Below are positions 9,836 to 26,526 of a DNA stretch of 64,000 bases, one piece after another; positions within the stretch are counted from its first letter, which is position 1; every line of letters starts with the position of its first letter. The stretch comes from an uncultured virus (IMG/VR IMGVR_UViG_3300022700_000241) (Duplodnaviria > Heunggongvirae > Uroviricota > Caudoviricetes). Location: the IMG/VR virus record IMGVR_UViG_3300022700_000241; one strand, 5' to 3'. Position numbers and translations under genes: made by a program. The notes beneath the pieces were generated by a model. It was given only the letters and a program-made list of their open reading frames with translations. It did no database searches and was not told the origin of the DNA.

Positions 9836-10498
9836 ATGAGCAGAAAAGCTCCCGTCACGCGACGCACGCCCCAGCGCCCCAGTGGCCTCGGTCGCCCCCA
9901 GTCCAACGGCCTTGCCCGCACCGGTCTCGGCGAACCCGCCGCCGGGAACGTCAAGCGGTGGAAGGCCCCGTTCCAGAAGTCCGGCTCGGTCAACATCTCG
10001 CAGGACCGCGTAGGGTTTTTGACCGACCCCGAAGGGCCGGGACGCACGAACTTCCAGGTCACACCCGGGGACGTTGTTCGGGCGCGGGTCACCGTGTCCA
10101 CGTCCGGCAACATCAAAACCCGCCTCATGCTGACTCCCTCGAAGGGGGACGGCCCGATTTACGAGAAAGGCGTCGTAACCCAGTGGGTACAGGGCCAAAA
10201 CATTCCGCTCCAGGCCGAACTGACGGTCCCGGACGGAATGAGTTGGATGAGCGTTGCTCTGGACCAACCCAACTGGACGCCCGGGGAAGTGCCTTCGGAC
10301 GCCGACTACCCCTTTGAATTTACCGAGGGGCAGCAGACGGGCACGATCTCGTGGAAGAACGCGAAGATCACGGTCAACCGACCGCTCGGCCAGGGCGGCG
10401 GTGGTGGAACGATGCTCGGCGGCTTCTCCACGACCGACGCCTTGATTGCCGGTGGGGCGCTGGTCGGCGCCACGGTGCTCTTCGTGAGCATCAATTAA
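9836..10498 (+). CDS. GLG-leader / C-terminal-anchor family protein (beta-rich domain)
   Basis: Basic leader with GLG/GLA/GLGE, beta-rich body, GGGGG linker, terminal hydrophobic helix ALIAGGALVGATVLFVSIN. Confidence 0.8.
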   Translation: MSRKAPVTRRTPQRPSGLGRPQSNGLARTGLGEPAAGNVKRWKAPFQKSGSVNISQDRVGFLTDPEGPGRTNFQVTPGDVVRARVTVSTSGNIKTRLMLTPSKGDGPIYEKGVVTQWVQGQNIPLQAELTVPDGMSWMSVALDQPNWTPGEVPSDADYPFEFTEGQQTGTISWKNAKITVNRPLGQGGGGGTMLGGFSTTDALIAGGALVGATVLFVSIN

Positions 10499-10502
10499 CC
10501 GG

Positions 10503-11012
10503 TCACAGGCGGCGAAGGCCTTGGGGAACGACGCGCTCGGCGCGCTCTCCTGCCGCGCGGGCGATCTCCATGTAGGTCTCCTCGGGGAGGCGATCTTTGG
10601 CCTCCTCGACGAAGAACTGCTTCCACGAGAGCGAGTCAATCTTCCGCAGGGCCTCCTCAAAAGAGCCCTCGGGGATGTTGCCCGGCTCGGCAGTCGGTTG
10701 GTCGGGGCTCGTGCCGCGGGACTGGAGCATCTGGATGTACTGGATGTTGCGCCCCATCGCTTTCTTCGCGTACTGGGCGCTGTTGAACCAGTCCTGGTCG
10801 GCGTACTCTCCGTCTTTGGCCGCCTTCTGCCGAGCCTCGTTAAGCTGGGCCTCGATGGAGTCAATGCGCTCCTGGAGGCGGATCTTCATCTCTTGGAGTT
10901 GTTCGGGGTTCATCTTGCGGAGCCGCCGCTTCTGCTCCTCTCTTTCCATGTCCCCAAACCGGTCGACGAACGCTTCGGTAATTCTCTGGTCGGTTTCCGC
11001 GTCGCTACTCAT
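10503..11012 (-). CDS. hypothetical coiled-coil protein
   Basis: Heptad-rich ORF, converges on the 9836 gene. Confidence 0.7.
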   Translation of the reverse strand: MSSDAETDQRITEAFVDRFGDMEREEQKRRLRKMNPEQLQEMKIRLQERIDSIEAQLNEARQKAAKDGEYADQDWFNSAQYAKKAMGRNIQYIQMLQSRGTSPDQPTAEPGNIPEGSFEEALRKIDSLSWKQFFVEEAKDRLPEETYMEIARAAGERAERVVPQGLRRL

Positions 11013-11481
11013 CGGCGATGGCTTTCATTTGTTCAGTGGCGATGTAGCAGGCGCATTCCGCCCCGTGCTCTTCCTGGAGGGTGAAGCAGGTCCCCTCCTG
11101 GAAGTCGTAAATGTCATAGATGCCGGAGCACTCCTCGTCAACGAAAGAGGAGACGGCAGGGCTTCCCTCATCCTTTAGCTTCCTTGCCCACCCCCGAGCG
11201 CTCCCAATCCAGCGGAGACCCTGCCGGAGGTACTCGGGGCACTCCGGGTCTTCGGTCCAACGGTCAAGGCGACGACCGGCAGCCCGCAGGCAGGCGCGCA
11301 GCTTCTCGATCTCGCCGGGCTCCCCATACCCATCGAGCTTCCCGTAGCTCCCGTACACCTTGTGCAGGAAGCGCTCGTAAAGGGGGGTGTGGGCGTGGCC
11401 CTCCCGAAGCGACTCATTGAGGGAGCCGATGCGTTCGGCTTGCACAGAAATGCGCCATTTCGAGAGTTCAAGGTCAGACAT
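11005..11481 (-). CDS. hypothetical protein
   Basis: ORF coupled to downstream gene; degenerate promoter upstream. Confidence 0.6.
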   Translation of the reverse strand: MSDLELSKWRISVQAERIGSLNESLREGHAHTPLYERFLHKVYGSYGKLDGYGEPGEIEKLRACLRAAGRRLDRWTEDPECPEYLRQGLRWIGSARGWARKLKDEGSPAVSSFVDEECSGIYDIYDFQEGTCFTLQEEHGAECACYIATEQMKAIADE

Positions 11482-11539
11482 TACTCGACTCGTGTTGTGA
11501 TGGGCCGCGGAGGTTGCGCCGCCCTCTTTTTGCTATCTG

Positions 11540-11569
11540 TTATAAGCCGTACAATAAAGGGGTGTTTCG
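11540..11569 (-). promoter_or_regulatory. degenerate copy of the GGAAC/GAAAC promoter
   Basis: Minus strand GAAAC-N17-CTTATAAC upstream of 11481. Confidence 0.5.
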
Positions 11570-11572
11570 ACG

Positions 11573-11863
11573 ATGGGATGGGAGAGTGACCTGCGGATCC
11601 TGCATGACTTTTACGACGGCTGGGCGGGGGTGGCCCACAACCTCCAGGTACAAGTCACCGCCGACTGGCTTCGCAAGTGCCTCCAGGAGGAGGACTCGAC
11701 GCCGAGTACGAAGATCCAGGAGGCGATCACGGCACATGCCAACGGCACCGACGGAACGCGGGCGCTCTCTCCAGGCTCGGACGACGAGTCTGGCAAAGGA
11801 CCTCCCCAACTCGATACGAGACTCGCGGACGATCTCAACATGACGCCACGGGATTCAATGTAG
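11573..11863 (+). CDS. hypothetical protein, possibly HTH-like
   Basis: 96-aa acidic ORF divergent from 11481. Confidence 0.45.
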   Translation: MGWESDLRILHDFYDGWAGVAHNLQVQVTADWLRKCLQEEDSTPSTKIQEAITAHANGTDGTRALSPGSDDESGKGPPQLDTRLADDLNMTPRDSM

Positions 11864-11945
11864 TAGTCGGGACCAGACCGCGCTCCGTCTCATTATAGAC
11901 CCGACGCTACCGATCACCGGACCTGCCACACGAGACTCCTCTGCC

Positions 11946-12836
11946 ATGTCCAGCCCAACACGGCGCCTCCAGAAGAAGAGAAGCGGCCTCGGCCAACTCC
12001 CGTGGGAGAACGGTGGTGGCCCGCCCCACGAGCCTGTTCTGGCCCAGGTGTGGAAGCACGCCAACTTCCAGGGCAACACGCTCAAGATGAGTGCCCCCGA
12101 GACGGGGAAGGCGACGTTCAACTACGACGACCTCTCCAACGAGGGCCTTCACGACCAAATCTCCTCGATACGGGTACAACCCGGCACGAAGGTCTCCCTG
12201 TTTAAGCACGTCGAGGGCGGGGAGCCCCAGCCCGCGAAATGGGACGTGATTGCCGAGGGTGGCATCAAGGAAATCGCCAACTTCAAAAACAGCCGCATCC
12301 CCAACGACGAAATCTCGGCCATCACCGTCGAGCGGCTCGCGCCCACAGACGGAGGCGGCGGAAACGGCAGCGGCGGGAACGGCGGAGGAGGGAACGGTGG
12401 CGGGAACGGCGGAGGAGGGAACGGCTCGTCGGGCGGCACGAGCGCCCCGACGGCTCCCTCACAGGGGCTCGTCGTTACCCGTGTAAGCTCAAGCGGGGTC
12501 GTGGTCCGAACTCCGGAAGCCTTCCAGGTTGGCGTAGAGTTTCCGTCCGGCTCGCAGGTCGCCCTCGCAACGCCGCAGGGCGGGGTTGCGCAGTTTACGA
12601 TCCAGACGGTCCAGCCCGCCGAAAGTGGGAAGACCCTCATTGTCACCAGTCCTCCGCCGGGGAGCGCGGCCCAGCAAGCGCTCCAGTCGAGCGCGCCGGT
12701 TCGGCTTTTTCCGATGTCGGGCCAAGGCGGCGGAGGCGGAGGAGGACAGTTCATCAAGGGCGTCCCGAACACCGCCCTTGCCATCGGCGGATTCGCGGTG
12801 GTCGGCAGTATGCTCTTCGTCGTCGCCAGCCAGTAG
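11946..12836 (+). CDS. GLG-leader / C-anchor family protein with beta/gamma-crystallin domain
   Basis: MSSPTRRLQKKRSGLGQ leader; WKHANFQG, HDQISSIRV, NDEISAI Greek-key motifs; GGN linker; FIKGVPNTALAIGGFAVVGSMLFVV anchor. Confidence 0.85.
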   Translation: MSSPTRRLQKKRSGLGQLPWENGGGPPHEPVLAQVWKHANFQGNTLKMSAPETGKATFNYDDLSNEGLHDQISSIRVQPGTKVSLFKHVEGGEPQPAKWDVIAEGGIKEIANFKNSRIPNDEISAITVERLAPTDGGGGNGSGGNGGGGNGGGNGGGGNGSSGGTSAPTAPSQGLVVTRVSSSGVVVRTPEAFQVGVEFPSGSQVALATPQGGVAQFTIQTVQPAESGKTLIVTSPPPGSAAQQALQSSAPVRLFPMSGQGGGGGGGQFIKGVPNTALAIGGFAVVGSMLFVVASQ

Positions 12837-12852
12837 GGATCGGCCACACGTC

Positions 12853-13551
12853 GTGAAAAGGTACGTGCAGTTCTCATTCCAGAGCGGCGCCCGAAAGAAC
12901 ACCTACGAGCGCGTCCGAAAGGCAACACGACTCGAACGCCTCCCCGGCATTCATCCGGTCTCGAACCTCTGGGCCGAGGCAGTCCGCGAGTACGTCAGCG
13001 GGGCAGGCCAACAGGTCGGAGGCGACTCGCGGTTCTTCAACAACATCGTGAAGAACGACTTCGGGAATATCGTCAACGAGGGAGGCACCGACAAGTGGGT
13101 AATCGTCCCCATGCTGTCGGAGGCAGACCTTCGACCAATACGGGAGGCAGTTCGAGAAAAGATGCCGTTCCTCCTGGCCGAAAACGACGTAACCCTCGAC
13201 GAGCCGATTCCCGAGCGGGGGATTGAGGACACGAAAACCCTCGCGGACTGGATGGTCGAGTTCTTCTCTTCGGGCATTGAGGTCGTTTCCGAGCGCCAGT
13301 CCCCGGTCAAAAATGGACAGAGGCTCACCGAGGAGCTTCCCATTAGCGGAGAGCCCTGGCGCGCGCTCATCGCAGAAGTGGGGCAGTGGGGCAAAAGCCC
13401 GAGGGGTCTCACCGAGAGAGCGGGGAGCGGAGGCGGCTTTGCTCCGCCGACTGGAGGTCAACGGAAAGCCGCGGGACTGGGAGCGAACACGTTTATCATC
13501 GGGAGCGCGGCCCTGGCCGCGTCCATAATCATCATCGGATCAAGCACGTAG
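12853..13551 (+). CDS. C-anchor family protein, paralog of 21754-22734
   Basis: GTG start 16 nt after upstream stop; DKWVIVP, LADW, EVGQWG shared with the 21754 protein; terminal TM helix. Confidence 0.75.
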   Translation: MKRYVQFSFQSGARKNTYERVRKATRLERLPGIHPVSNLWAEAVREYVSGAGQQVGGDSRFFNNIVKNDFGNIVNEGGTDKWVIVPMLSEADLRPIREAVREKMPFLLAENDVTLDEPIPERGIEDTKTLADWMVEFFSSGIEVVSERQSPVKNGQRLTEELPISGEPWRALIAEVGQWGKSPRGLTERAGSGGGFAPPTGGQRKAAGLGANTFIIGSAALAASIIIIGSST

Positions 13552-13555
13552 CGCC

Positions 13556-13780
13556 ATGCTAAACTCTCTTCTCGCACCGATCTTCAAGGGCCTCCGAGGG
13601 CTTCTCGTCATCATTCTCTGGGGTGGCATACTCATCTACATCGACCAGAGCTACCCCACGCTCCTGGACGGATGGTACTGGAGCATCGGTCTCTACGGAA
13701 TGTTCTTGGTCCTGGCCCTCACGTGGCTTTACTACGGAACCGGCCAGCACCTCAAGCCCGACCCCAACAGCGACGGGTGA
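13556..13780 (+). CDS. small two-TM membrane protein
   Basis: Two hydrophobic helices; ATG 4 nt after upstream stop. Confidence 0.7.
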   Translation: MLNSLLAPIFKGLRGLLVIILWGGILIYIDQSYPTLLDGWYWSIGLYGMFLVLALTWLYYGTGQHLKPDPNSDG

Positions 13781-13783
13781 GCC

Positions 13784-16393
13784 CTATTCGGGCACGTAGC
13801 TCCCGCTGGTCGTAAGGCGGATCTCATCAATCCGGATCCCGCCCTCACGCATCCGGAAGAGGAGCAACCCGGGGCCGGTCTCGGCCACCTCAATGGTCAT
13901 GGGGCCTTGCTCGGTGACGCCGAAGCTGGAGCCGCCGGTGTTTACCCAAACCCACTCGCCGGTCTGCGCCTCTGCTAAGTCGCCGTGTGCGTCGGAGTAG
14001 ATGTCGTTGTAGCTGTGCCACGTGTCGGTGGGGTCCCGGACGTGAAACGAATTGTCCGCTCCTGCGCCGCCGCTGTGAGCCACTCGGAGCCAAAGGTAAT
14101 GCGGCCCGGTCGCGCAGAAGTCAACCGGCACGTCGAACAGTGCCGCCCCTGTCGTTTGGGGGAACGGCTGACCCTCTGGGCTCTCGGGAAGGGCAAGCGC
14201 GTAGCCGTTCCCGGTGGCCGTCGAGGTATCACGGCGAACCCAATTGGTGTCGCCGTAGGCGTACTTGCGCGCCCGAGCGGCGTCAATCTCCACGAGGTTG
14301 CTCGGGTCTTCTAAGTTGCAGTTCTGGAGCGCCTCGTCTCCGTCGCTGTACGGGTACGTCGTCGTGACGCCGATGGTGAGGCTCCCAGTCTCGACCGTAT
14401 CGTCTGGGTAGTCCGGCTTCTCGACCGAAAGGGTATCGACGGAAAAGAACACGTCGTCGTTGTAGCCGCCCTCATCGCAAATCTCAATGTCGACCTGCTC
14501 GCACGGCTCGAACACCGGCCACATCGAATAGGCCACATCTTCCGACCGGTCGTAAATCTCGAAGGAGAAGTCCTCCCCTTCGTACATCCCCGGCTGTTCG
14601 GGAAGCCCCAGGGTCGAGTCGAGCTTGGCGGCGACCGCCAGAGTGAAGATGCCGCCGGACGAAACCGGGATGTGACCCACGCAATTCCCCCTCGGACTCA
14701 CCGCCGCAACCGTATCATCCTCGGCGAGGGGCTCGCCACTGGGAAAGCTGTAGTCATAGGGCGCGTTGACCGTCGCATTATCCACGTTCGTCGCGCAGTC
14801 TTCCGAGTAGACGAACGAGGGGTCTCCTCCGGTCACGGGCTCCTCTTCAACCACCTGCGACGAGTCCGAGACTGTCGCCCCCGCCGAGTCAATGGCCGTA
14901 ATGAGGATCTGGTAGGTGTCCCCGCTCCCGTCCTCGTCGGCGGACACGAAGCGAAACGGCTCGCCGGGGTTGTTCGAGGCGGATTGCCCGTCGCCCCACT
15001 GCTCGGCGGGAAAAGTCGCCTCATCCCGGGTCTGCCCGGTCGTGAGGTTGCGAAGCTCGAACTGGAGGGAGTCGAGGTTGCCATTCGGGTCAGAGGCGCC
15101 CCAGGTCACATCGAAATGCGCGTTGTCGCTCGGGTGCGCCGCCGTGTCGATAGACACCGAGTCAACGGCAGGGGCGAAGTTCTCCTCCTCAAACTCTTCG
15201 ACCACCTGCGCCGAGTCGGCATCGGTGAGGCCTTCGGTATCGTACACCGTTAGGCGGATCTCGTAGGTGTCCCCACTACCATCTTCTCCCTCGGCAGTAA
15301 AGCGGAACGGGTTGCCGGGGTTGTTCGAGGCTTCACTGCCATCGCCCCAGTTGAGGGGGTCGAAGCCGATGCTCTTTTTCCGCTCCCCCTGGCTCACATT
15401 CCAAAGCTCGAAGTGGAGACTGTCGAGGTTCGCGTTCTCGTCGCTTACGCCCCACCTCACGTCGAAATGAGCAGCGTTGTTTGGGCTGGAGGCTGTATCT
15501 ATCGAGATTGAATCGACCACCGGGGCGACGTTCTCCTCCACAAACTCCTCGGTCACCTGGGCGGAGTCGCTGGCCGAAAGCCCCGTCTCGTCGTAGGCCG
15601 TGAACTGGATCTGGTAGGTATCCCCGCTCCCGTCCTCCCCCGGAGCCACGAACCGAAAGGGGGAGCCCGGGTCGTTTGACGCTTCCGACCCGTCGCCCCA
15701 GGCCAGCGCGTCGTAGGTCGACTCGTCCACGACCGCTCCAGTCGTGAGATTGCGAAGCTCGAAGTGGAGGCTATCGAGGTCCCCGTCCGGGTCAGAAGCG
15801 CTCCAGTACACGTCGAACTCCGCGTCGACGGAGGGCGTGTCGGCAGTATCAATAGAGAGCCCCCCGACCGAGGGTGCGATTGGATCCTCATCGGTCGTGT
15901 CCTCCGGCGGGGGCATTGGGAGAGGCACCCCCTCCCCGAGGAGCCCGAGGTTGCGAAGACAGGTGACCTTCGATTGAAGCGTGGCGTATTCGGTCGAGTC
16001 CTCCATTGCCTGCCGGGGGAGGTCGCGAACGTCGTCGAGCACGTCGTCGACTGCAAACGGCTCGCTGACCGCAGGACACTTGGCCTCGTCGACTTTCTCA
16101 ACGGTCTCGTACCAGAAGCCGGTCGTGTCCCCGGGAGCGACGCGGCGCACGATGTCTTTGCCTGCGCAGGCGATTCCGTCTCCGTCCCTGTCGAGGCCAA
16201 ACGGATCTGCCGTGGAGTCCTGCACGAGCCACTGCACGGCAACGTACGTGCCTTGCGCCTCAAGGATGGAATCGAAGTCCGAGCAGTTCTTGTCGGCGAT
16301 GGTCGTGTCGATGTCGACGGTGATCTGCGCCGCCGCGACCATCGGAAGCAACATGCCAAGAACTACAAGAAATGCTACTCTCTTGGCCCACAT
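13784..16393 (-). CDS. large secreted acidic protein: signal peptide, Excalibur Ca-binding domain, three Ig-like repeats, C-terminal CBM-like domain
   Basis: MWAKR+hydrophobic+AAA-Q signal; DKNCSDF...DPFGLDRDGDGIAC; three ~117-aa repeats FDVxWxxSDxxxxLDSLxFELxN; terminal YLWLRV...DNSFHV...MREGGIRIDEIRLT. Confidence 0.85.
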   Translation of the reverse strand: MWAKRVAFLVVLGMLLPMVAAAQITVDIDTTIADKNCSDFDSILEAQGTYVAVQWLVQDSTADPFGLDRDGDGIACAGKDIVRRVAPGDTTGFWYETVEKVDEAKCPAVSEPFAVDDVLDDVRDLPRQAMEDSTEYATLQSKVTCLRNLGLLGEGVPLPMPPPEDTTDEDPIAPSVGGLSIDTADTPSVDAEFDVYWSASDPDGDLDSLHFELRNLTTGAVVDESTYDALAWGDGSEASNDPGSPFRFVAPGEDGSGDTYQIQFTAYDETGLSASDSAQVTEEFVEENVAPVVDSISIDTASSPNNAAHFDVRWGVSDENANLDSLHFELWNVSQGERKKSIGFDPLNWGDGSEASNNPGNPFRFTAEGEDGSGDTYEIRLTVYDTEGLTDADSAQVVEEFEEENFAPAVDSVSIDTAAHPSDNAHFDVTWGASDPNGNLDSLQFELRNLTTGQTRDEATFPAEQWGDGQSASNNPGEPFRFVSADEDGSGDTYQILITAIDSAGATVSDSSQVVEEEPVTGGDPSFVYSEDCATNVDNATVNAPYDYSFPSGEPLAEDDTVAAVSPRGNCVGHIPVSSGGIFTLAVAAKLDSTLGLPEQPGMYEGEDFSFEIYDRSEDVAYSMWPVFEPCEQVDIEICDEGGYNDDVFFSVDTLSVEKPDYPDDTVETGSLTIGVTTTYPYSDGDEALQNCNLEDPSNLVEIDAARARKYAYGDTNWVRRDTSTATGNGYALALPESPEGQPFPQTTGAALFDVPVDFCATGPHYLWLRVAHSGGAGADNSFHVRDPTDTWHSYNDIYSDAHGDLAEAQTGEWVWVNTGGSSFGVTEQGPMTIEVAETGPGLLLFRMREGGIRIDEIRLTTSGSYVPE

Positions 16394-16482
16394 ATCACGG
16401 TCGTCTCTATGAGTCAGAGGCGTGTAAATACATGAGCTTTAAGCATAAACAAAGGTTCTTGGTCCCCAGTCCTCACAAATAC

Positions 16483-16582: not shown

Positions 16583-17578
16583 CTACGTTGCAAACCCGAG
16601 GGCGCCAGACTGTGATTGTCCAGAAAAAAGCTGTCGGTCGTTCATCTCCAGGTGCCTTGAGGCCTCCAGGAGGATCATCTGCCGAAGAGGTTCGGTCGGG
16701 GCAGACTCCGCGGCGGCTACGATTTCTCGCTCTACGGTCGCTTCCGGCTCATAGTCGCCGCTTTCGGCAGCCCTCGTCAGGAGCTTCCCGAGCCCGATGT
16801 GCTGTTTCTCAAGCCACCATCGAAGACCGTCCAGGCCCTCCTCCCGGGCATACTCGTGGGGGTCGAGGCCATCGGGTAAAATCGCGGCACGGGGCACAAG
16901 GCCCGACGCAATCGCCCGCTTCATGCCCCGAATGGTGGAGGTGACCCCAGCCTCGTCAGGGTCGTAGGCAAAGACGACCTTCGAGGCTCGATTCGAGAGC
17001 ATCCCTACCTGCGTGCGCGTGAGGGCCGTCCCGCTGGACGCCACGACGTTGATGAGCCCCTCGGACTGGAGCGTAATCACGTCCGTGTACCCCTCGGTGA
17101 TAACGGCAGTACCGGTCTTCTCGATAGCTGAACCGGCCCGCCACATGCCGTAAAGATACCGGTCTTTGTCGTAGTGGTCGGTGGCCGGGGAGTTGATGTA
17201 CTTCGGCCCTTCCTCCTCATTGGAGAGAAGGCGCCCGGCAAACCCCAGGGGCTTTTCCTCCTCCGAGTAGAGAGGGAAGATGAGCCGATTCCGAAAGCGG
17301 TCGTAGTGGCCGGAGGATTGGCGCGGCTTGACCAGTCCCGCCTCGACGAGCGTGCTCGCGGAGAAGCCCCGCCTACGGGCCGCGATGAGAAGAGCGTCCC
17401 ACGAGTCCGGCGCCCAGCCCAGTCCATACTCGTCGGCGACTCCTCTCCCATAACCGCGCTCCCCGAGGTACTGGACGGCTTTTTGCCCAGCATCGGTTTC
17501 GGTTAAATGGTAGTGGAAGAACCTCTCGGCAAAAGAGAGGGACTCATCTGTCGTGTCCGCCCAGTTTGACTCGGCCAT
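16583..17578 (-). CDS. dnaG: bacterial-type DNA primase catalytic core (TOPRIM) lacking the N-terminal zinc-binding domain
   Basis: YLGERG, DRFRNRLIFP, GFAGR, PKYINSP, EGYTDV, SSGTAL, YDPDEAG, DPHEY; start at MAESNW just after upstream stop. Confidence 0.9.
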   Translation of the reverse strand: MAESNWADTTDESLSFAERFFHYHLTETDAGQKAVQYLGERGYGRGVADEYGLGWAPDSWDALLIAARRRGFSASTLVEAGLVKPRQSSGHYDRFRNRLIFPLYSEEEKPLGFAGRLLSNEEEGPKYINSPATDHYDKDRYLYGMWRAGSAIEKTGTAVITEGYTDVITLQSEGLINVVASSGTALTRTQVGMLSNRASKVVFAYDPDEAGVTSTIRGMKRAIASGLVPRAAILPDGLDPHEYAREEGLDGLRWWLEKQHIGLGKLLTRAAESGDYEPEATVEREIVAAAESAPTEPLRQMILLEASRHLEMNDRQLFSGQSQSGALGFAT

Positions 17579-17580
17579 CG

Positions 17581-18258
17581 TTATGCGTCCTGTGGATTGA
17601 AGTCCCCATCGTAGCGCTCCTCGAAGAGATCCTCCATGCCCTTCGCGGTTGAAAGTCCGATTCCGGCGGCCCCTCTGTGTTGGTGCTTCTCCAACGCTCG
17701 GGCAACTTGCTGGACCGTAGAACAATGAGACTGAACGACCCACCGGGCCGCCGGGACCCCGCGGGAGACCTTGCCGGAGCGCATCGCGTAGGCGGCGACC
17801 GAGGACGGGTCCTTCGGGCTCAGTGGCCCGACCACCGGCACGTCGTGAGGCGTGAACTGAACCGGCGCCTCGGCCCCGCAGATGGGGCAGGCGCGGACCA
17901 TCACAAGATCCTCGCAGAAGTCAAACCAGAACCGACCGTCTCCGGACTCGACGCAGAGAACGTGCGTGGCGTCCTTGTTGGAGAACACCACCGGCGTCTC
18001 TCGGTCCTCCCGGCGCTCCCACTTGCAGAAGTGCCGACGGTCTATCGAGCCGTGATGCACGTGCTGCTCGCTTTCGGTGGAGGCCTCCGCCGGGCTCAAG
18101 TGGGCGTGCGTCGGGCAAAACAGGGCCGTCCCGTCGACGGACGCCTTTCCCACCCAAGGGGTCCGGTCCAGTAGAAACTCGGCGGCTTCCTCCTGGTCGA
18201 GGCCGGGCACGATGATCGTGTCCTCACACTCGGTACAGGTAAAGACAAAGCGGTCCAT
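17581..18258 (-). CDS. multi-Cys putative zinc-binding protein
   Basis: CTEC, CPTH, CPIC motifs; stop 2 nt before primase start. Confidence 0.65.
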   Translation of the reverse strand: MDRFVFTCTECEDTIIVPGLDQEEAAEFLLDRTPWVGKASVDGTALFCPTHAHLSPAEASTESEQHVHHGSIDRRHFCKWERREDRETPVVFSNKDATHVLCVESGDGRFWFDFCEDLVMVRACPICGAEAPVQFTPHDVPVVGPLSPKDPSSVAAYAMRSGKVSRGVPAARWVVQSHCSTVQQVARALEKHQHRGAAGIGLSTAKGMEDLFEERYDGDFNPQDA

Positions 18259-18274
18259 GACAGGTGGGGCCGGT

Positions 18275-18502
18275 TCAGTCCGACCATGCTGCGTCGCAGA
18301 AATCGAGGTTGCGGATTACAGGGATCCGGCGCCGCTCGACGTAGGTGTTGTCCAGGGCGAGCCACTCCATTACGGTCTCGGGCACGTCGGGTGAAGTCGC
18401 CGAAATCATTGCGACGACCCCGGAGCACTTCCGGCAGTGGCATACGTAGCCGAAGTCCTCGGCGGAGGGCTCGTGTCCGGACCCATGATCGTCGTTAGCC
18501 AT
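18275..18502 (-). CDS. small Cys-rich protein
   Basis: CHCRKC...FC. Confidence 0.55.
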   Translation of the reverse strand: MANDDHGSGHEPSAEDFGYVCHCRKCSGVVAMISATSPDVPETVMEWLALDNTYVERRRIPVIRNLDFCDAAWSD

Positions 18503-18845
18503 CGGCAGTTCCGTTTTCTATTCCAGAAAAACGAGTCGAGTAGGTGAGGTGGGTAAGCAAAAGGCCCTCTGGGACCTCGCCGTTTTGGATCCGCTGCATG
18601 TCCGCCTCGGGAATGGGCCACTGAACGGAACCGTAGCCCAGGTCACCGAGAATCTCGGAAGCCGCCTCGCGGAGGTCGTCCATCGAGCCCGGCTGCTTGG
18701 TCAACCGCCGATTGACCTCTCGAATTTCCTCTTCGGTGATCTCCCCAACCGCCTCCTCCGGCAGCTTCCCGTAGGTGCAGAGCCCGTCGTCGTTGAGTAG
18801 GACGGCGGCGTTGGGATCGTCGACGGTCGTTTGCTTTGCGTTCAT
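18495..18845 (-). CDS. hypothetical protein
   Basis: Acidic ORF in operon. Confidence 0.6.
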   Translation of the reverse strand: MNAKQTTVDDPNAAVLLNDDGLCTYGKLPEEAVGEITEEEIREVNRRLTKQPGSMDDLREAASEILGDLGYGSVQWPIPEADMQRIQNGEVPEGLLLTHLTYSTRFSGIENGTADG

Positions 18846-18875
18846 AGCGCTGGTGGCGAAGAGCCATTGGTGGTG

Positions 18876-19352
18876 TTACGGTGATTTGATTTGAGGACGC
18901 TCCTCCAGCGTCACGAGCGCTACGCCGACGTGCCCGTCCCCGCCAAGGGTGAGCACCGGGATCTCCTCGCCCATCTCGTAGCTCATGAGGAGCTTGCGAA
19001 GCCGCTTGTAGAGCGAGACCGACTGGTGTTTAATGTGCTCCTTTACTTCGGACCGCCCGTTCCAGACGGCCCACACGATCTCGCCCTCATCATCCCGACC
19101 GACGTGAAGCATCTGCGGGGTCCCGCTGTCGTTGAACTGCTCCCGGTCGATGGTGAACGCAGGGGACTCGTCCCAATCGTCCCGAAGCGCGTCCGCGGTG
19201 TAGGCAATGAGCCGCATGGCGTCCGTCTCAAACTCGTGGGACTCGACGCCGGAATCCGACTCGCCGTTCGGGGAGCGCTCCCCGACGTTGCGGTTTGGGA
19301 TTGGCGTTGCGTTTTCGGGAGTCTCTTCGGGGGAGGGGTCAGTCTCGCTCAT
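18876..19352 (-). CDS. hypothetical protein
   Basis: First gene after a degenerate promoter. Confidence 0.65.
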   Translation of the reverse strand: MSETDPSPEETPENATPIPNRNVGERSPNGESDSGVESHEFETDAMRLIAYTADALRDDWDESPAFTIDREQFNDSGTPQMLHVGRDDEGEIVWAVWNGRSEVKEHIKHQSVSLYKRLRKLLMSYEMGEEIPVLTLGGDGHVGVALVTLEERPQIKSP

Positions 19353-19389
19353 TGCAAGCAGTCAATTATTCGGCTCTATGTTGGGCTTA

Positions 19390-19420
19390 GTTGTAAGTGC
19401 TTTAAGAGGCCGATGTTTCC
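19390..19420 (-). promoter_or_regulatory. degenerate copy of the GGAAC/GAAAC promoter
   Basis: Minus strand GAAAC-atcggcctcTTAAAGca-CTTACAAC (N17). Confidence 0.6.
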
Positions 19421-19493
19421 GCGTACTCGAACCTTCCCCCGCCAATCCCATAAGCGTGTGTGAACCGACCTCTCACGTGCCTACGCCGATGCC

Positions 19494-20288
19494 ATGCGCC
19501 GCTCTACGCACCTCCTCAAGCAGAACGCCAAGATCAAGCCCACCTCCGAAGTGCCCGACGGGATGAGCCAGTCCTTTGGCTTTGGCCCCAGCTTTGGCGG
19601 TGGGGGTGGGTTCAACTTCGGGTCCGGAGGCGGCTTCAACTTTGGCTCCGGGGGTGGCTTCAACTTTGGCTCTGGGGGCGGGGGCTTCAACTTCGGGTCC
19701 GGCGGGGGCGGGTTTAACTTCGGGCAGGGCGGCGGCTTCAACTTTGGCCAGAACAACTTCGGCTTCAACCAGGGCTTCGACTTCCAGCAGCAACAGCAGC
19801 AGTTCGGGTTTAACCCCGGAGGGCTGTTCGACCAGTCCGGCCAGTTCTCCTTCAACCCGAGCTTCCAGGTCGAGTCGCTCAACCAGAGCGCCTTTGGCGC
19901 GCAGTCCCCGTTTGGGGCCGGTGCCCCGCTCGCCTCCAGTGATAGCCCCAACCAGGGGGACGTGCCCGAATTTGGCGACTGGAAGGAGTTTGTGGCCTTC
20001 CTTTTTCGGAACGGCCCAGCCTGGGTGAAGGCGTTTAAGGAGGGCCGCATCTCCCCCCGCGGCGGCGCCTCGCGAAACGCTCCGTCGAGCAACCGGCGGG
20101 AGATCATCCAGCGCTACATGGCCCAACGCTCCCAGCAAATGAACCAGGGCGGCATCGGGGGTGGCGTCGGCGGATTCCTCACGTCAACAACCGGAATGCT
20201 CGTGATCGGCGGCGTGCTGTTTGGGGGAATCCTGCTTGCCGCTACGGCAGGCGGAAGCCAACGGCGCGTGGTTCGTCGCCGACGCTAA
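19494..20288 (+). CDS. FxFG-repeat low-complexity membrane-anchored protein (GLG-leader family)
   Basis: Basic leader ending GMSQ; six GFNFG units; Q/N/F-rich region; TM helix then RRVVRRRR. Confidence 0.85.
   Translation: MRRSTHLLKQNAKIKPTSEVPDGMSQSFGFGPSFGGGGGFNFGSGGGFNFGSGGGFNFGSGGGGFNFGSGGGGFNFGQGGGFNFGQNNFGFNQGFDFQQQQQQFGFNPGGLFDQSGQFSFNPSFQVESLNQSAFGAQSPFGAGAPLASSDSPNQGDVPEFGDWKEFVAFLFRNGPAWVKAFKEGRISPRGGASRNAPSSNRREIIQRYMAQRSQQMNQGGIGGGVGGFLTSTTGMLVIGGVLFGGILLAATAGGSQRRVVRRRR
19608..19749 (+). repeat. tandem coding repeat (GFNFGSGG) x6
   Basis: Units such as GGCTTCAACTTTGGCTCCGGGGGT with synonymous variation between copies. Confidence 0.9.
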
Positions 20289-20312
20289 TCAACCAACCAC
20301 ACTGCTGGCCCC

Positions 20313-21731
20313 ATGAAGCCGACTGCACGACTCGACCGTATCTCAACGCCAAGCCGATCCCCAACCGCTACAGGGCTCGGCCAGTCAACCTACGAGCTTT
20401 GGCACTACCACGACACGAAGGCGGCCAACGATGAGGCAATCTCAAGCACCGAGATTACCAACGCCTCCAACTACGTCCAGGCGAACACACAGTACCTCAA
20501 TGCCGTCGCCGAAAATGTCGTCGAGGTCGTGAACAACAACGGCGGCAACGCGCACCTCGAAGAGCGAGCCGTCGACCCCGGGAACCCTCCCTTTCTGCCG
20601 TACAAGGTGGCCGTCGTCGAATCTCCTGCCCCACGCTCGGACGTGGACTCTCTCATCTCCCAGATGATCGAGCAGGCGAAGCAAAAGGAGTACGACGTGC
20701 TCAACCAGAACGCGATGGAGGTTTTCTTCGAGAAGATCAAGAGCACGAAGACACAGCCTGTTGCGGAGGGCACCTGGGAGAATATGTATAACCCGAGGCC
20801 CCCATACGTCTACCCCAGCCCCACGCCGGTCGTCCAGTGGAAACAGGTGTCCGGGGAGCCCTCCGGCGAAAATGGAGGGGGCGACCCGAATGAGGATGGG
20901 GGCGGCTCTATGCCGAGCGTCGGCACCTTCGTGGTTCAGTCCGTGGAGGGCGGGCGGCTTATCGCCCGGGAGCAGTCTCCTCCCTCACAGCAGTTCAAGG
21001 ATCTTGGCGGCACAGTCCGGGTGACCGTTCTTCCGGATGACATCCAGATCGACCCGATTGACGACCCCATCGACGACCCGGTTTTTGACCCGCCAGACGA
21101 CGGGAACGGGGACGACGACGGCCCCGACGGGCCAACACCGATCCTGCAAGGCCTCTCTCAAGTGAGGTCTCGAAAGCCAACGATGCGGCTGCCCTCTCGG
21201 AGAAAATCGCAATCGCGCCCGCAGCGACGTGCCACTTCGGGGATAAGTGCAGGACTCGGACAGGGGAGCGTCAGCACGCACATGCTGACCGTGCCCGGCG
21301 GGTCAAACAACCTACGCTACCGGCCCGACGGACGGGTCGAGGTGAAGATCGTAGAGCCGATCCCTCAACCGGTCAAAGACGCCACCCGGCAAGGCGGTAC
21401 GGTTACGATGGTGGTCGAATCGGTCGGCTCCTCAAACGGCGGGGACAACGGTGATAATGGCGACAACGGTGATAATGGGGGCAACGGGAACGGGGATAAC
21501 GGCGGGGATGGCAATGGCGGAAACGGAGGGAATGGGGGCGGAAATGGCGGAAACGGAGGCGGCGGAAATGGAGGGGGCGGTGGAAACGGAGACGGCGGCA
21601 CTGGAACGGTCGTCGGCGGTCGCCAACCGACGGGCCAGCAGGCCGGAATCGTTCCGGGCGTCTCCAACGCCACGCTCGTGATCGGGGCCGCCGGGGTCCT
21701 CTCGCTAACAGTTATTGCAGCCTCAAGCTGA
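20313..21731 (+). CDS. GLG-leader / C-anchor family protein, multidomain, with internal second leader
   Basis: MKPTARL...TGLGQ leader; internal GLSQ and GLGQ; NGD/GGN linker; IVPGVSNATLVIGAAGVLSLTVIAASS anchor. Confidence 0.85.
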   Translation: MKPTARLDRISTPSRSPTATGLGQSTYELWHYHDTKAANDEAISSTEITNASNYVQANTQYLNAVAENVVEVVNNNGGNAHLEERAVDPGNPPFLPYKVAVVESPAPRSDVDSLISQMIEQAKQKEYDVLNQNAMEVFFEKIKSTKTQPVAEGTWENMYNPRPPYVYPSPTPVVQWKQVSGEPSGENGGGDPNEDGGGSMPSVGTFVVQSVEGGRLIAREQSPPSQQFKDLGGTVRVTVLPDDIQIDPIDDPIDDPVFDPPDDGNGDDDGPDGPTPILQGLSQVRSRKPTMRLPSRRKSQSRPQRRATSGISAGLGQGSVSTHMLTVPGGSNNLRYRPDGRVEVKIVEPIPQPVKDATRQGGTVTMVVESVGSSNGGDNGDNGDNGDNGGNGNGDNGGDGNGGNGGNGGGNGGNGGGGNGGGGGNGDGGTGTVVGGRQPTGQQAGIVPGVSNATLVIGAAGVLSLTVIAASS

Positions 21732-21753
21732 ACCGCATCAACCTAACGATCTC

Positions 21754-22734
21754 ATGACCCCCACGGCCAGAATACAAGGCCCAAAGTCCACCGCCTCGGG
21801 GCTTGGGTTGGGAGCCCTTTCCGAGTCAACAAAGCAGTGGATCCACTGGGACTTCACGAAGGTCAACCAGGACGAGTACGACAAAATGAAGGACATGACC
21901 GTCCCAGAGGGCGCGGTCTCCAGCACCCTTCCCCCATCGGACAAGATCACAGGCGTCGTCGCCGACGCGACCGCAGAGTTCATGCGCCAGAACCAGATAA
22001 GCCATACCATCAAGAGCCGCCAGCTTCAATGGTCCGCATTGGGGAAAACCGCCACGGTCAATGACAAGTGGGTGCAGGTCCCACAGATGAACCAGAGCGT
22101 TTTCGATACGATCTTGGAGGCGGTGAAGCCCAAGGTGAAAGAGGCCATCTTGAACCAGACGGAGATCGGCACAATCGACTTCGGGGACCACACCGATATA
22201 GTCGGGCTTGAAACCCCGCTACAGGATCTCGCAGACTTCTACTGGGAGTGGTGGCTTGAGGGGATTAACAGGAGCGGCACAAAGCTCCCAGCGAAAGCCA
22301 GCGGCTTTGACCGCGGGATCCAGCGGTATCTCATGATTGAGGTAGACAACTGGGGCGAATCTGGAGGAGGGGGCGGGGGTGGAGGTAGCGCAAACCTCGT
22401 TCGCGTTCGCATCAAGGCGGCAAGCCGCGGTGCGGTTGAGGCCCTAAAGTTGCAGTACATCCGGTCCGCTGGAGGGCAAACAGTCCGGTCAGAGGGACCC
22501 TTGACAATCATCGCAGACGTGCCTGCCGGTTCGGTTTCTTCGTTTCAAGACTTTAGCGGGGTCCGTTCCGTTACGCCACTGAACCAGGGCGGCGGCGGAA
22601 GTGGTGGGGGAGGTGGAGGCTGGGGAGGTGGAGGGTCCCGAGAGGCTGGAATCATTCGGGGCGTCTCGAACAGTACACTTGTAATCGGGGCCGCAGGCCT
22701 CCTCTCAATTACGCTCGTTGCTGCCTCTTCCTAA
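21754..22734 (+). CDS. GLG-leader / C-anchor family protein
   Basis: MTPTARI...SGLGLG leader; two poly-G linkers; IIRGVSNSTLVIGAAGLLSITLVAASS anchor. Confidence 0.85.
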   Translation: MTPTARIQGPKSTASGLGLGALSESTKQWIHWDFTKVNQDEYDKMKDMTVPEGAVSSTLPPSDKITGVVADATAEFMRQNQISHTIKSRQLQWSALGKTATVNDKWVQVPQMNQSVFDTILEAVKPKVKEAILNQTEIGTIDFGDHTDIVGLETPLQDLADFYWEWWLEGINRSGTKLPAKASGFDRGIQRYLMIEVDNWGESGGGGGGGGSANLVRVRIKAASRGAVEALKLQYIRSAGGQTVRSEGPLTIIADVPAGSVSSFQDFSGVRSVTPLNQGGGGSGGGGGGWGGGGSREAGIIRGVSNSTLVIGAAGLLSITLVAASS

Positions 22735-22746
22735 ACCTCGACTCCG

Positions 22747-23340
22747 ATGAAGCCGACAAGAAAGATTTCCGGCCATTCAACGTCTCGTGACGCCAACGGG
22801 CTCTCGCAGGCAAACACCTCGAAATACCCAGTGATGGAGATTTCTCCATCTGGGGGCGGGGCAAAGCTCACGCTCGAAACCTTCGAGTTCGTAGACCCGC
22901 TGTTCTCGGAATGGAGCCCCTCTAACGGGGGCCAGATTTCGATTGCCGTCGAGGGGCAACAGCCCGTCGTCCTTCCTGTCGAGGCGTCATCTGGGGCGAT
23001 CACAGGCCCCCTTGGAAACGGGATGACGGAGGTGATCGTCACGAAGCCAGTACCGCAGGGAATCCAATCTGCCGTAGGGGCACAGAACGTGATCGTAATG
23101 CCTGGGAAGGTCCAGGGAGCCGTTCCCCCATCGGAGTTCGGCACCTCCAACGGAGGGAGCGGTGGTGGAGGGAATGGAGGCGGAAATGGCGGGAGTGGTG
23201 GCGGCGGTGGCGGGGGCTTCCCTCCCGGCGGCTCCACCGGCGTTCAACGGTCAGAGATCATCCCCGGCGTCTCCAATACTGCCCTCGTCATTGCCGCCGG
23301 TACGCTTACGACCGCCACAATTTTGGCCGCAGCAAATTAG
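22747..23340 (+). CDS. GLG-leader / C-anchor family protein
   Basis: MKPTRKI...NGLSQ leader; poly-G linker; IIPGVSNTALVIAAGTLTTATILAAAN anchor. Confidence 0.85.
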   Translation: MKPTRKISGHSTSRDANGLSQANTSKYPVMEISPSGGGAKLTLETFEFVDPLFSEWSPSNGGQISIAVEGQQPVVLPVEASSGAITGPLGNGMTEVIVTKPVPQGIQSAVGAQNVIVMPGKVQGAVPPSEFGTSNGGSGGGGNGGGNGGSGGGGGGGFPPGGSTGVQRSEIIPGVSNTALVIAAGTLTTATILAAAN

Positions 23341-26515: not shown

Positions 26516-26526
26516 GGCAATAGAGG

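What the first reader, a model, noticed from the sequence alone, without database searches (positions are those of the whole stretch)
9836..23340. Dispersed family of proteins with a basic PT(A/R)R...G[LM][GS]Q leader and a conserved C-terminal membrane anchor: candidate targeting and maturation system
Seen: seven plus-strand genes (9836, 11946, 12853, 19494, 20313, 21754, 22747) lie in three islands against the minus-strand background. Six begin with a 13-30 aa basic leader, unusual in this acidic proteome, most with PT(A/R)(R/K)(L/I) and ending GLGE, GLGQ, GMSQ, GLGQ, GLGLG, GLSQ. All end with a Gly-rich linker and one hydrophobic helix, four with [IF][IV]xGV[SP]N[TAS][AT]L[VA]I. The cargo between these ends differs (crystallin, FG repeats, beta domains). 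Known: Gly-directed maturation cleavage exists in adenovirus, poxvirus I7 and ASFV pS273R systems. The leader has no hydrophobic core, so it is not a Sec, Tat or prepilin signal. Inference: a virus-specific system in which a cleavable leader and tail anchor route interchangeable cargo domains to a viral or virus-induced membrane.
Basis: partly seen in the sequence, partly recalled or inferred. Interest (0 to 1): 0.88.

Follow-up and report, generated by a model that had tools for sequence, protein, structure and literature searches.

The report
Phage family of tail-anchored modular proteins
A large uncultured phage carries seven related genes for membrane-anchored proteins that share a short basic start peptide and a flexible glycine tether, a family not yet described whose purpose is still unknown.

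Summary
Seven plus-strand genes in three islands of an otherwise minus-strand, phage-like window end in a Gly-rich linker plus one hydrophobic helix. Most start with a basic peptide that lacks a hydrophobic core and carries two short boxes: [KTS]PTx[RK][LI] at residues 3-8 and G[LM][GSA] at about 14-30. Both ends are conserved in about 20 relatives found among billions of proteins, all on large unnamed contigs. The spacer, the linkers and the middle domains vary and are shuffled between members. No Pfam, NCBIfam, PHROG or PADLOC model matches. The anchor is not a described sorting signal and was not found in cellular genomes. The window looks like a tailed phage (fibre and virion proteins, DnaG primase), so a viral membrane is unlikely, and no adenain-like protease is present. 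The best reading is a lineage-specific family of C-tail-anchored host-membrane proteins whose N-terminal peptide is a shared recognition handle, possibly a removable propeptide. Cleavage, topology and function remain untested. A T4-like capsid-targeting role is the main rival. Interest is moderate to high.

The parts
9836..10498 (+). P0001, 220 aa. Basic leader MSRKAPVTRRTPQRPSGLGR...GLGE with a degenerate box1 and three G-L boxes; unknown domain; G5 linker; C-terminal helix.
   Evidence: A near-identical relative P0026 exists. No solved-structure relative by sequence.
11946..12836 (+). P0002, 296 aa. Leader MSSPTRRL...GLGQ; beta-gamma-crystallin-like domain; Gly/Asn linker; second small domain; G7 linker; FIKGVPN plus C-terminal helix.
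   Evidence: (spherulin 3a, E 9.1e-5).
12853..13551 (+). P0003, 232 aa, GTG start. Atypical member: KATRLERL at residues 23-30, no box2, Gly-rich linker and C-terminal helix. Its middle part is weakly similar to the P0006 N-domain.
   Evidence: (BLAST E 0.002).
19494..20288 (+). P0004, 264 aa. Leader MRRSTHLL...PDGMSQ; GGGFNFG (FG) repeats and a Q-run; conserved helical segment; Gly-rich linker; TM followed by QRRVVRRRR.
   Evidence: (leader boxes, TM and basic tail conserved in two homologues).
20313..21731 (+). P0005, 472 aa. Leader MKPTARLDR...TGLGQ; alpha/beta N-domain; small beta domains; acidic Pro/Asp linker; Gly/Asn linker of about 55 residues; IVPGVSN plus C-terminal helix.
   Evidence: folded parts 28-179, 203-242, 319-372; leader, linkers and internal leader below pLDDT 50.
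21150..21263 (+). Internal second leader inside P0005 (residues 280-317): GLSQVRSR-KPTMRL-(basic spacer)-AGLGQ.
   Evidence: It is conserved in the distant orthologue P0020 (RGMRGPSQKPTMRL...SAGLGQ; BLAST 37% identity over 165 residues). It is modelled as disordered.
21754..22734 (+). P0006, 326 aa. Leader MTPTARI...SGLGLG; unknown N-domain; G8 linker; small 'stalk' domain; Gly-rich linker; IIRGVSN plus C-terminal helix.
   Evidence: The structure model is unusable (mean pLDDT 38).
22747..23340 (+). P0007, 197 aa. Leader MKPTRKI...NGLSQ; one small domain; Gly/Asn linker; IIPGVSN plus C-terminal helix.
   Evidence: (orthologue P0015: MKPTRKI...TGMGQ).
11573..11863 (+). 96-aa acidic + strand ORF at the head of island 2. 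Not a family member: no leader, no anchor.
13556..13780 (+). 74-aa + strand ORF with two hydrophobic stretches by eye (holin-like size and shape; one passed the 19-mer threshold). It closes island 2. No family match.
9688..9835 (.). Divergent intergenic region ahead of island 1, holding TTATAAG and TTAAAGGG words. Possible promoter, not shown.
11482..11572 (.). Divergent intergenic region ahead of island 2 (TTATAAG ... ATAAAGGGG).
19353..19493 (.). Divergent intergenic region ahead of island 3 (TTGTAAG ... TTTAAGAGG).
32436..34070 (-). S8 subtilase with D/H/S motifs present and no signal peptide, fused to a nuclease-like part and HHH. It is only a speculative candidate for a leader-processing enzyme.
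   Evidence: The link to the family is inference only.

Best explanation
The locus encodes a lineage-specific family of modular, C-tail-anchored membrane proteins of a large uncultured tailed phage (contig of at least 136 kb).

Each member is built in this order:
1. A disordered basic N-terminal peptide of about 17-30 residues with two short conserved boxes. Box1 is [KTS]-P-T-x-[RK]-[LI], right after the start Met. Box2 is G-[LM]-[GSA], at the border to the first folded domain.
2. One to three small globular domains, which differ between members and have been shuffled.
3. A Gly/Asn/Ser tether encoded by short tandem DNA repeats.
4. A juxtamembrane [IV][IV]xG[VIA][SP]N motif and a 19-22 residue Gly/Ala-rich helix that ends the protein.

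The genes sit in three opposite-strand islands and are therefore probably expressed as a class of their own.

Most likely mechanism (inferred, not shown): the C-terminal helix inserts post-translationally into the host inner membrane, as in bacterial tail-anchored proteins. The domains then hang on flexible tethers at the cytoplasmic face. The N-terminal peptide is not needed for insertion. It serves as a common handle read by one partner, most plausibly a propeptide docked through box1 and cut at box2 by a phage protease.
For: Shown:
- The seven ORFs and their shared ends.
- No hydrophobic core in the leaders.
- Selection acts on the peptide, not the DNA. For P0005 and P0006, 22 of 29 anchor residues are identical but only 10 codons are; box1 codons differ between paralogues; the upstream and 5' DNA does not align.
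- Conservation in relatives. In the 26 family sequences tabulated, box1 is present in 20 (17 with strict P-T), box2 in 22, and G[VIA][SP]N in 20 by my reading of the tails. The misses are 2 N-terminally truncated gene calls, P0001/P0026, P0003, P0019 and, for the anchor motif, the P0004 group. The spacer varies in length and sequence.
- The internal leader is kept in P0005 and P0020, each time with a further G[LM] 7-8 residues before it.
- Domain shuffling: the P0005 N-domain is joined to the P0006 stalk in P0012, and to the P0007-type stalk in P0011 and P0016. P0017 is a minimal form of leader, stalk and anchor.
- Leader, linkers and internal leader are modelled as disordered, and the C-terminus as a helix.
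- Linkers are tandem-repeat encoded and vary between strains.
- The family is very narrow: 9 real hits among 1.84 billion representatives, and 9 in the 5.8-billion word-index search.
- There is no known family match.

From the literature: in E. coli a C-terminal TMD suffices for Sec-independent membrane insertion (PMC6794478, abstract and passages).
Against: - There are no expression, proteomic or localisation data. Cleavage is pure inference.
- Box2 degenerates to GLA/GLS in the P0006 clade, and P1' is not fixed.
- P0004 and its homologues, and P0019, carry a conserved Arg-rich tail after the helix. By the positive-inside rule this argues for the opposite (N-out) topology.
- The beta-gamma-crystallin domain of P0002 belongs to a class that, as I recall, is mostly extracytoplasmic and Ca-binding.
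- The family is much less acidic (D+E 4.5-12%) than the other window proteins (mean 17.4%, median pI 4.8). That is odd for cytoplasm-facing domains in an acidic proteome.
- No maturation protease was identified apart from an S8 subtilase with no shown link.
Confidence: 0.5

Rival explanations
1. Capsid-targeted ejection proteins. The N-terminal peptide acts like the T4 capsid targeting sequence: box1 docks the protein to the scaffold or capsid interior and box2 is the prohead-protease site. The proteins are packaged, ejected with the DNA, and their C-terminal helix then enters the host membrane from outside.
For: - The form matches: a short conserved peptide at the extreme N-terminus, then a conserved site, on unrelated 'cargo'.
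- T4 CTS is 10 residues, removed by gp21, and works on foreign proteins (PMC9026906, passages).
- Giant-phage head proteins come as paralogue families with propeptides. SPN3US gp47 is a processed ejection protein with a predicted TM helix (PMC5694885, passages).
- The low acidity of the family and the internal leader flanked by G[LM] on both sides suit polyprotein processing.
- Insertion from outside would suit the Arg-rich tails of P0004 and P0019.
- Opposite-strand islands could be late genes (inference).
Against: - No capsid, portal, scaffold or prohead protease gene is recognisable in the window. The rest of the contig is not visible.
- Box2 does not resemble the known x-x-E cleavage motifs quoted.
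- Seven strongly hydrophobic helices inside a membrane-less capsid would be unusual.
- The long Gly tethers next to a TM are better explained by membrane display.
Confidence: 0.2
2. Exported, type-I-like envelope proteins. The domains lie outside the cytoplasm, the C-terminal motif-TM-(basic tail) is a stop-transfer or sortase-type sorting signal, and the leader is an unconventional export signal.
For: - The layout domain, low-complexity linker, short motif, TM and (in P0004 and P0019) a basic cluster resembles C-terminal sorting signals.
- The crystallin-like and small beta domains look like surface modules (weak).
Against: - No member has a hydrophobic signal core.
- The Tat minimal motif RRx-phi-phi plus h-region (PMC10924467, passages) is absent.
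- No CTERM sorting model matches at E up to 10.
- Most members lack the basic tail.
- No multi-pass sortase-like enzyme is in the window.
- The anchor was not found in cellular genomes: only chance hits in the genome-contig collection, and 1 marginal hit in 401 Bacteroidota genomes.
Confidence: 0.1
3. Same tail-anchored proteins, but the leader is a degradation or unfoldase tag (for example for ClpXP or FtsH) that limits their lifetime, not a propeptide.
For: - Box1 (x-T-A-R-L/I at the free N-terminus) resembles the E. coli ClpX N-terminal recognition class 'polar-T/phi-phi-basic-phi' of lambda O and Dps. This wording is recalled from Flynn et al. 2003; only the citation was seen.
- The leader is disordered.
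Against: - The resemblance was not tested here.
- An internal conserved copy and a conserved box2 are not explained by an N-degron.
- P0003 carries the box 22 residues in.
Confidence: 0.1
4. One reading: a cleavable leader plus tail anchor route cargo to a viral or virus-induced membrane, with Gly-directed maturation as in adenovirus, poxvirus or ASFV.
For: The two conserved ends on shuffled cargo are real and virus-specific.
Against: - The window has tailed-phage markers: Gp80 fibre protein at E 1e-22, a Bcep22-like virion protein, and a tail-fibre PHROG.
- Tailed phages have no lipid membrane (established knowledge).
- No clan CE protease is among the window proteins.
- No double-jelly-roll or packaging-ATPase signal is seen in the window.
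Confidence: 0.07

Closest known systems
Bacterial tail-anchored membrane proteins (TAMPs such as E. coli DjlC, Flk, SciP/TssL)
   Same: A single hydrophobic helix at the extreme C-terminus, no N-terminal signal peptide, and a flexible linker before the TMD. The TMD alone can drive Sec-independent insertion (PMC6794478; PMC3426401 listing only).
   Different: Known TAMPs are single host genes. They have no shared N-terminal motif, no paralogue family with shuffled domains, and no conserved juxtamembrane GVSN motif. This family is phage-encoded and present in seven copies.
T4 capsid targeting sequence (CTS) proteins and giant-phage head propeptides (IPI-III, Alt; SPN3US gp47, gp53/54)
   Same: A short conserved N-terminal peptide followed by a processing site on otherwise unrelated or paralogous proteins. 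Genes are scattered in the genome. One example (gp47) has a TM helix.
   Different: The cleavage motifs there end in Glu (L/I-x-E, A/S/G-x-E), whereas box2 here is G-[LM]-[GSA]. No head genes or prohead protease are visible here. All members here carry a C-terminal TM and Gly tether.
C-terminal sorting signals (PEP-CTERM/exosortase, PGF-CTERM/archaeosortase, GlyGly-CTERM/rhombosortase, LPXTG/sortase)
   Same: A low-complexity linker, a short signature motif, a TM helix and, in P0004 and P0019, a basic cluster at the very C-terminus of proteins with varied domains.
   Different: No NCBIfam model matches. Most members lack the basic cluster, none has an N-terminal Sec signal, no cognate enzyme is seen, and the motif is not found in cellular genomes.
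Tat-dependent tail-anchored proteins
   Same: An N-terminal basic signal combined with a C-terminal TM (PMC10924467).
   Different: They need RR-x-phi-phi and a hydrophobic h-region. The leaders here have neither.
Encapsulin targeting peptides (GSLxIGSLK)
   Same: A short Gly/Ser/Leu-rich terminal peptide on a flexible linker loads varied cargo into an HK97-fold shell (PMC10960027, passages). Box2 has a loosely similar composition.
   Different: They are usually C-terminal, the consensus differs, and there is no shell gene here. This is an analogy only.

Membership tests
Tail-anchored membrane proteins | One TM helix within about 30 residues of the C-terminus and no other hydrophobic segment | tested here: met
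   All seven: the only hydrophobic 19-mer ends 1-12 residues before the stop.
Tail-anchored membrane proteins | No N-terminal signal peptide | tested here: met
   The maximum 12-residue hydropathy in the first 35 residues is 0.89 or less, against 2.7 for the window's signal peptide.
Tail-anchored membrane proteins | Post-translational insertion with the N-terminal part in the cytoplasm | not testable with these tools
   Charge distribution is ambiguous. K/R precede the helix in most members, but Arg-rich tails follow it in P0004 and P0019.
Sec signal peptide | Hydrophobic h-region after a basic n-region | tested here: not met
Tat signal / Tat-dependent tail-anchored proteins | R-R-x-phi-phi motif followed by an h-region and an AxA-type site | tested here: not met
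   RR occurs only in the P0001, P0002 and P0004 groups, and is never followed by two hydrophobic residues or an h-region. Definition from PMC10924467.
Type IV prepilin leader | Short basic leader ending in Gly, directly followed by a hydrophobic helix of about 20 residues | tested here: not met
   Residues after box2 are polar, for example GLGQSTYELWHY. The definition is recalled.
Sortase-type C-terminal sorting signals (PEP-, PGF-, GlyGly-CTERM, LPXTG and others in NCBIfam) | Match to a curated sorting-signal model | tested here: not met
   No CTERM model matched any of the seven proteins at E up to 10.
Sortase-type C-terminal sorting signals | Tripartite motif, TM and basic cluster, together with an N-terminal Sec signal and a cognate multi-pass enzyme | tested here: not met
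   The basic cluster occurs only in the P0004 group and P0019. There is no Sec signal and no multi-pass protein in the window. The rest of the contig and the host are not visible.
T4-type CTS / prohead-protease propeptides | Cleavage motif of the known proteases (L/I-x-E; A/S/G-x-E) | tested here: not met
   Box2 is G-[LM]-[GSA], followed mostly by Q. Only P0001 has GLGE. Motifs as quoted.
T4-type CTS / prohead-protease propeptides | Presence in virions with the N-terminus removed | not testable with these tools
   No proteomic data. No RNA or protein resource was found.
Clan CE Gly-directed viral maturation systems (adenain, poxvirus I7, ASFV pS273R) | A clan CE cysteine protease encoded by the virus | tested here: inconclusive
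   None among 75 window proteins scanned with Pfam. About half of the contig of at least 136 kb is outside the window.
Beta-gamma-crystallin (P0002 N-domain only) | Sequence similarity to a solved beta-gamma-crystallin domain | tested here: met
   A profile of 4 orthologues hits spherulin 3a at E 9.1e-5 and 2e-4 over profile positions 26-90. No Pfam Crystall hit at E up to 1, so the match is weak.

The most novel reading that the evidence does not exclude
A phage-private, two-signal protein handling system. A non-hydrophobic N-terminal bipartite peptide (box1 for docking, box2 as the cut site for a phage protease such as the signal-less S8 subtilase) and a Gly-tethered C-terminal anchor act together. 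They deliver and mature interchangeable domains, including an FG-repeat protein and a crystallin, at a membrane or into the capsid. This would be a new kind of targeting and maturation code in tailed phages, with polyprotein members (P0005, P0020) cut into a free part and an anchored part.
Probability: 0.2. Interest if true: 0.8.

Novelty: new variant of a known kind. Interest (0 to 1): 0.55.

Why it matters
Paralogue families are rare in phage genomes. This one joins two conserved terminal signals to shuffled domains, and that layout usually marks a dedicated sorting or loading route.

If the leader is a targeting or processing code, three things follow. It would give a handle for finding the partner (a protease, capsid or insertase). 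It would give a portable tag for loading proteins onto membranes or into capsids of halophile phages. It would also give a first function for a block of dark-matter genes in an uncultured lineage of large phages.

The tail-anchored FG-repeat protein is an unusual thing to find in a phage.

If the proteins are simply tail-anchored host-membrane proteins, they are still the largest set of such proteins I know of in one phage. That statement rests on recall and on two literature searches that found nothing similar.

Tried and rejected
- **Nucleotide-level motif.** The seven upstream and 5' regions do not align (44% mean column identity, 4 invariant columns), so the leader is not a DNA or RNA signal.
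- **Promoter and terminator scan.** 2 promoter-like sites against 2.1 expected, and 19 terminator-like sites against 13.6 ± 4.1. Nothing usable.
- **tRNA and Rfam.** 0 hits.
- **Related genomes.** The search for related loci in viral contigs found no relative with P0006, A1, A5, A6 or the primase. The metagenome-contig scan with P0008 found none.
- **Anchor DNA pattern.** 0 matches in viral contigs, 1 in metagenome contigs and 3 in genome contigs. All four were read and are chance matches inside unrelated frames. The pattern is strict, so absence is weak evidence.
- **Cultured phages.** megablast of 9000-24000 against the phages collection gave no match.
- **ESM Atlas.** No feature hit. The structure rows come from models of pLDDT 0.40 and 0.46 with TM below 0.5.
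- **PADLOC.** 0 hits for 11 proteins.
- **Earlier findings of this scan.** Nothing.
- **Structures.** The P0006 model is unusable (mean pLDDT 38.3). For the P0005 model (mean pLDDT 51.5), Foldseek found 0 matches at E of 0.001 or better in PDB and BFVD. VIA wide gave a best Z of 8.9 (rmsd 3.3, 85 aligned) to small beta-barrel domains, including EF-Tu domain 2 and some phage tail proteins. The tool states that this is at its background level.
- **Stalk domains.** hhalign of the three stalk types gave probability below 6%, so common ancestry is not shown.
- **Solved structures by sequence.** P0001 and P0003 had 0 hits. P0007, A1 and A6 matched only artificial Gly linkers, apart from one weak hit for A1 to a succinyltransferase (E 0.0022).
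- **Sequencing runs.** No RNA holder was listed.
- **Whole genome.** None is held.
- **Host.** It is only guessed as Bacteroidota-like, from two observations. Primase hits include Porphyromonas, Flavobacterium and Cellulophaga phages, all below 60% identity. Shine-Dalgarno words are depleted: 9 of 78 genes against 23% at random positions. DUF5131 hits point elsewhere, to Mycobacterium and Gordonia phages.

Full report
**What the window is.** Pfam and PHROG scans of the predicted proteins show these phage genes:
- a bacterial-type DnaG primase (16583-17743, DNAG_N E 6e-33 plus Toprim)
- two HNH endonucleases
- a DUF5131 protein
- a DUF2786/DUF7168 protein
- a polynucleotide-kinase-phosphatase-like protein
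- an S8 subtilase fused to a nuclease-like part and HHH
- a 1158-aa LamG/Gly-rich protein
- a homologue of podophage GP4 fibre protein Gp80 (41368-41790, E 1e-22)
- a tail-fibre PHROG

Most other proteins are orphans. The Gp80-like protein finds virion or head proteins of Burkholderia phages DC1 and Bcep22. The exact P0006 protein is recorded on 4 contigs, the longest 135,993 bp. No whole genome is held. The window therefore looks like part of a large tailed phage. Its proteome is acidic: 70 minus-strand proteins have median pI 4.8 and mean D+E 17.4%. Shine-Dalgarno words are depleted upstream of starts, in 9 of 78 genes against 23% at random positions. The primase's best named phage hits are Bacteroidota phages at below 60% identity. 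A halophilic Bacteroidota-like host is a guess, not a result.

**The observation.** A codon-usage gene model puts about 70 genes on the minus strand. The plus strand holds only nine:
- P0001 (9836-10498)
- a 96-aa acidic ORF (11573-11863)
- P0002 (11946-12836)
- P0003 (12853-13551)
- a 74-aa ORF with two hydrophobic stretches (13556-13780)
- P0004 to P0007 (19494-23340)

Each island starts at a divergent intergenic region and ends within 4 bases of a convergent minus-strand gene. The seven proteins are the only ORFs in the window that combine a hydrophobic C-terminal window with at least 20% Gly in the preceding 50 residues. Only 10 of about 79 proteins have any hydrophobic 19-mer, and 8 of these 10 are plus-strand genes. 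A regex joining both leader boxes hits only family members among 655 six-frame segments, and 0 of 70 minus-strand proteins. The leaders have no hydrophobic core. The small corrections are listed under the observation check.

**Is it selected, and at what level?** The DNA upstream of and into the genes does not align. Box1 is written with different codons in each paralogue. Identical anchor residues are often encoded by different codons: 22 identical residues but only 10 identical codons between P0005 and P0006. The conservation is therefore on the peptides.

**Relatives.** Four searches found them:
- P0006 has two orthologues at 62-65% identity.
- A profile of the anchors found 9 proteins in the 5.8-billion word-index collection.
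- An exhaustive HMMER search of 1.84 billion representatives found 10 proteins at E of 0.001 or better. Nine are real and one (P0021) is a chance repeat protein without a TM.
- P0004 has two homologues.

Cluster look-ups added a few more. All are unnamed, from JGI, Logan or ENA assemblies, several on contigs of 58-130 kb.

In these relatives the extreme N-terminus is invariant within each orthologue group: MKPTARLDR, M[KT]PTAR[IL], MKPTRKI, MSSPTRRL, MRRSTHL[LI]. The spacer changes in length and sequence. A G-[LM]-[GSA] box stays at the border to the first conserved domain, for example TGLGQSTYELWHY. The juxtamembrane motif and helix are kept. In the P0006 clade box2 is only GL[AS]A.

P0005 and its distant orthologue P0020 both keep an internal second leader, KPTMRLPSRR...AGLGQ, with another G[LM] 7-8 residues before it.

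BLAST of the cores, with leaders and anchors removed, shows domain shuffling. The P0005 N-domain occurs with the P0006-type stalk (P0012), with the P0007-type stalk (P0011, P0016), or with the internal leader plus stalk (P0005, P0020). P0017 is a minimal form of leader, stalk, linker and anchor. P0019 joins an acidic Asp/Phe-repeat region to the same anchor followed by KRRR. The three stalk types are not demonstrably homologous. The Gly-rich linkers are encoded by 15-27 nt tandem repeats and differ in length between strains: P0010 lacks one 9-residue unit of P0002.

**What the parts look like.**
- No Pfam, NCBIfam, PHROG or PADLOC family matches.
- The P0002 N-domain matches spherulin 3a, a beta-gamma-crystallin (E 9e-5).
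- P0004 carries six GGGFNFG-type repeats, a Gln run and a conserved helical segment, and its TM is followed by a conserved Arg-rich tail.
- The AlphaFold model of P0005 (7 sequences, mean pLDDT 51.5) has three moderately confident folded parts: 28-179, 203-242 and 319-372.
- The same model leaves the leader, the acidic linker with the internal leader, and the Gly/Asn linker disordered, and makes residues 452-471 a helix.
- Fold searches gave nothing above background.
- The P0006 model is unusable.

**Known signals tested and excluded.**
- Sec, Tat and prepilin leaders fail on the missing hydrophobic region and, for Tat, the RR-x-phi-phi motif (definition in PMC10924467).
- No NCBIfam C-terminal sorting model matches at E up to 10.
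- A strict DNA pattern for the anchor found only chance matches in the genome contigs and metagenome collections.
- The anchor profile found 1 marginal hit (E 0.005 per genome) in 401 Bacteroidota genomes, which is at chance level.
- No clan CE protease, capsid, portal, terminase or prohead protease is recognisable in the window. About half of the contig is unseen.

**How it most likely works.**

*Shown:* a private family with two conserved terminal peptides, flexible tethers and shuffled domains, encoded as opposite-strand islands.

*Inferred:* the C-terminal helix anchors the proteins in the host inner membrane by the tail-anchor route. In E. coli this route needs only the TMD and not SecYEG (PMC6794478). 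The leader must then serve another purpose. Several features fit a propeptide with a docking box and a cut site:
- its place at the free N-terminus
- its bipartite form, with a variable spacer
- box2 lying at the domain border
- the internal copy being bracketed by G[LM] boxes

The window encodes a signal-less S8 subtilase with intact D/H/S motifs. Subtilases prefer Leu, Met or Phe at P1 (recalled), which would suit G-[LM]|x.

*Against an N-in topology:*
- the Arg-rich tails of P0004 and P0019
- the crystallin-type domain
- the family's low acidity

**Rivals.** The main rival is a T4-like capsid targeting sequence on ejection proteins (PMC9026906 and PMC5694885, passages read). It explains the leader at least as well, and it explains the low acidity and the Arg tails better. 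It lacks any visible head genes here, and it must accommodate seven hydrophobic helices in a capsid. An unconventional export route, or a degron role for box1 (a recalled resemblance to ClpX N-terminal signals), are weaker options.

**Novelty.** Two literature searches found no description of such a family. That covers only the open-access library that was searched. I rate it a new variant of a known kind: terminal-signal-defined modular proteins, or tail-anchored proteins. There is roughly a one-in-five chance that it is a new targeting and maturation code.

Noticed in passing
window 13784-16393 (-): An 869-aa protein with a classical signal peptide and three repeats of about 110 residues (DS.SIDTA...HFDV.W..SD..G.LDSL.FEL.N; weak PKD-like hit). 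It is the only clearly secreted protein in the window, and it abuts island 2.
   Followed up: partly
window 32436-34070 (-) and 34124-34498 (-): An S8 subtilase with an intact triad and no signal peptide, fused through an acidic Pro/Glu linker to a nuclease-like part (phrog_452) and HHH. A stand-alone paralogue of the nuclease-like part lies next to it.
   Followed up: partly
window 9688-9835, 11482-11572, 19353-19493: The word TT[AG]TAAG occurs 6 times on both strands of the whole window, and 4 of these lie in the three divergent regions ahead of the + strand islands. T[AT]AA[AG][AG]GG words lie nearby. This may be a shared promoter element.
   Followed up: partly
whole window: Shine-Dalgarno words are depleted upstream of starts (9 of 78 genes against 23% at random). 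Positions -17 to -14 are A-rich and -2 is C-rich. This pattern of translation initiation is typical of Bacteroidota.
   Followed up: partly
window 12355-12425, 19602-19748, 21444-21599, 23159-23214: The Gly-rich linkers and the FG repeats are encoded by tandem DNA repeats of 15-27 nt. A related strain (P0010) lacks one exact 27-nt unit of P0002, so linker length varies by slippage.
   Followed up: yes
protein P0019 (not in the window): A 278-aa protein from another contig joins MSGRLGQ and an acidic Asp/Phe repeat region to the same LIPGVSN anchor, followed by KRRR. It has no box1.
   Followed up: partly
window 8782-9687 (-) and 3673-4584 (-); 6260-7129 (-) and 25622-26725 (-): There are further paralogue pairs in the window: two HNH_3 endonucleases and two phrog_20769 proteins.
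   Followed up: no
window 40520-41356 (-): A sulfotransferase gene (Sulfotransfer_1, E 5e-28) sits between the 1158-aa LamG/Gly-rich fibre-like protein and the Gp80-like fibre protein.
   Followed up: no
window 23337-23741 (-): A 134-aa protein with an N-terminal TM helix is convergent with P0007, and the two gene ends overlap by 4 bases. All three islands end this tightly against a minus-strand gene, leaving no room for a terminator.
   Followed up: no
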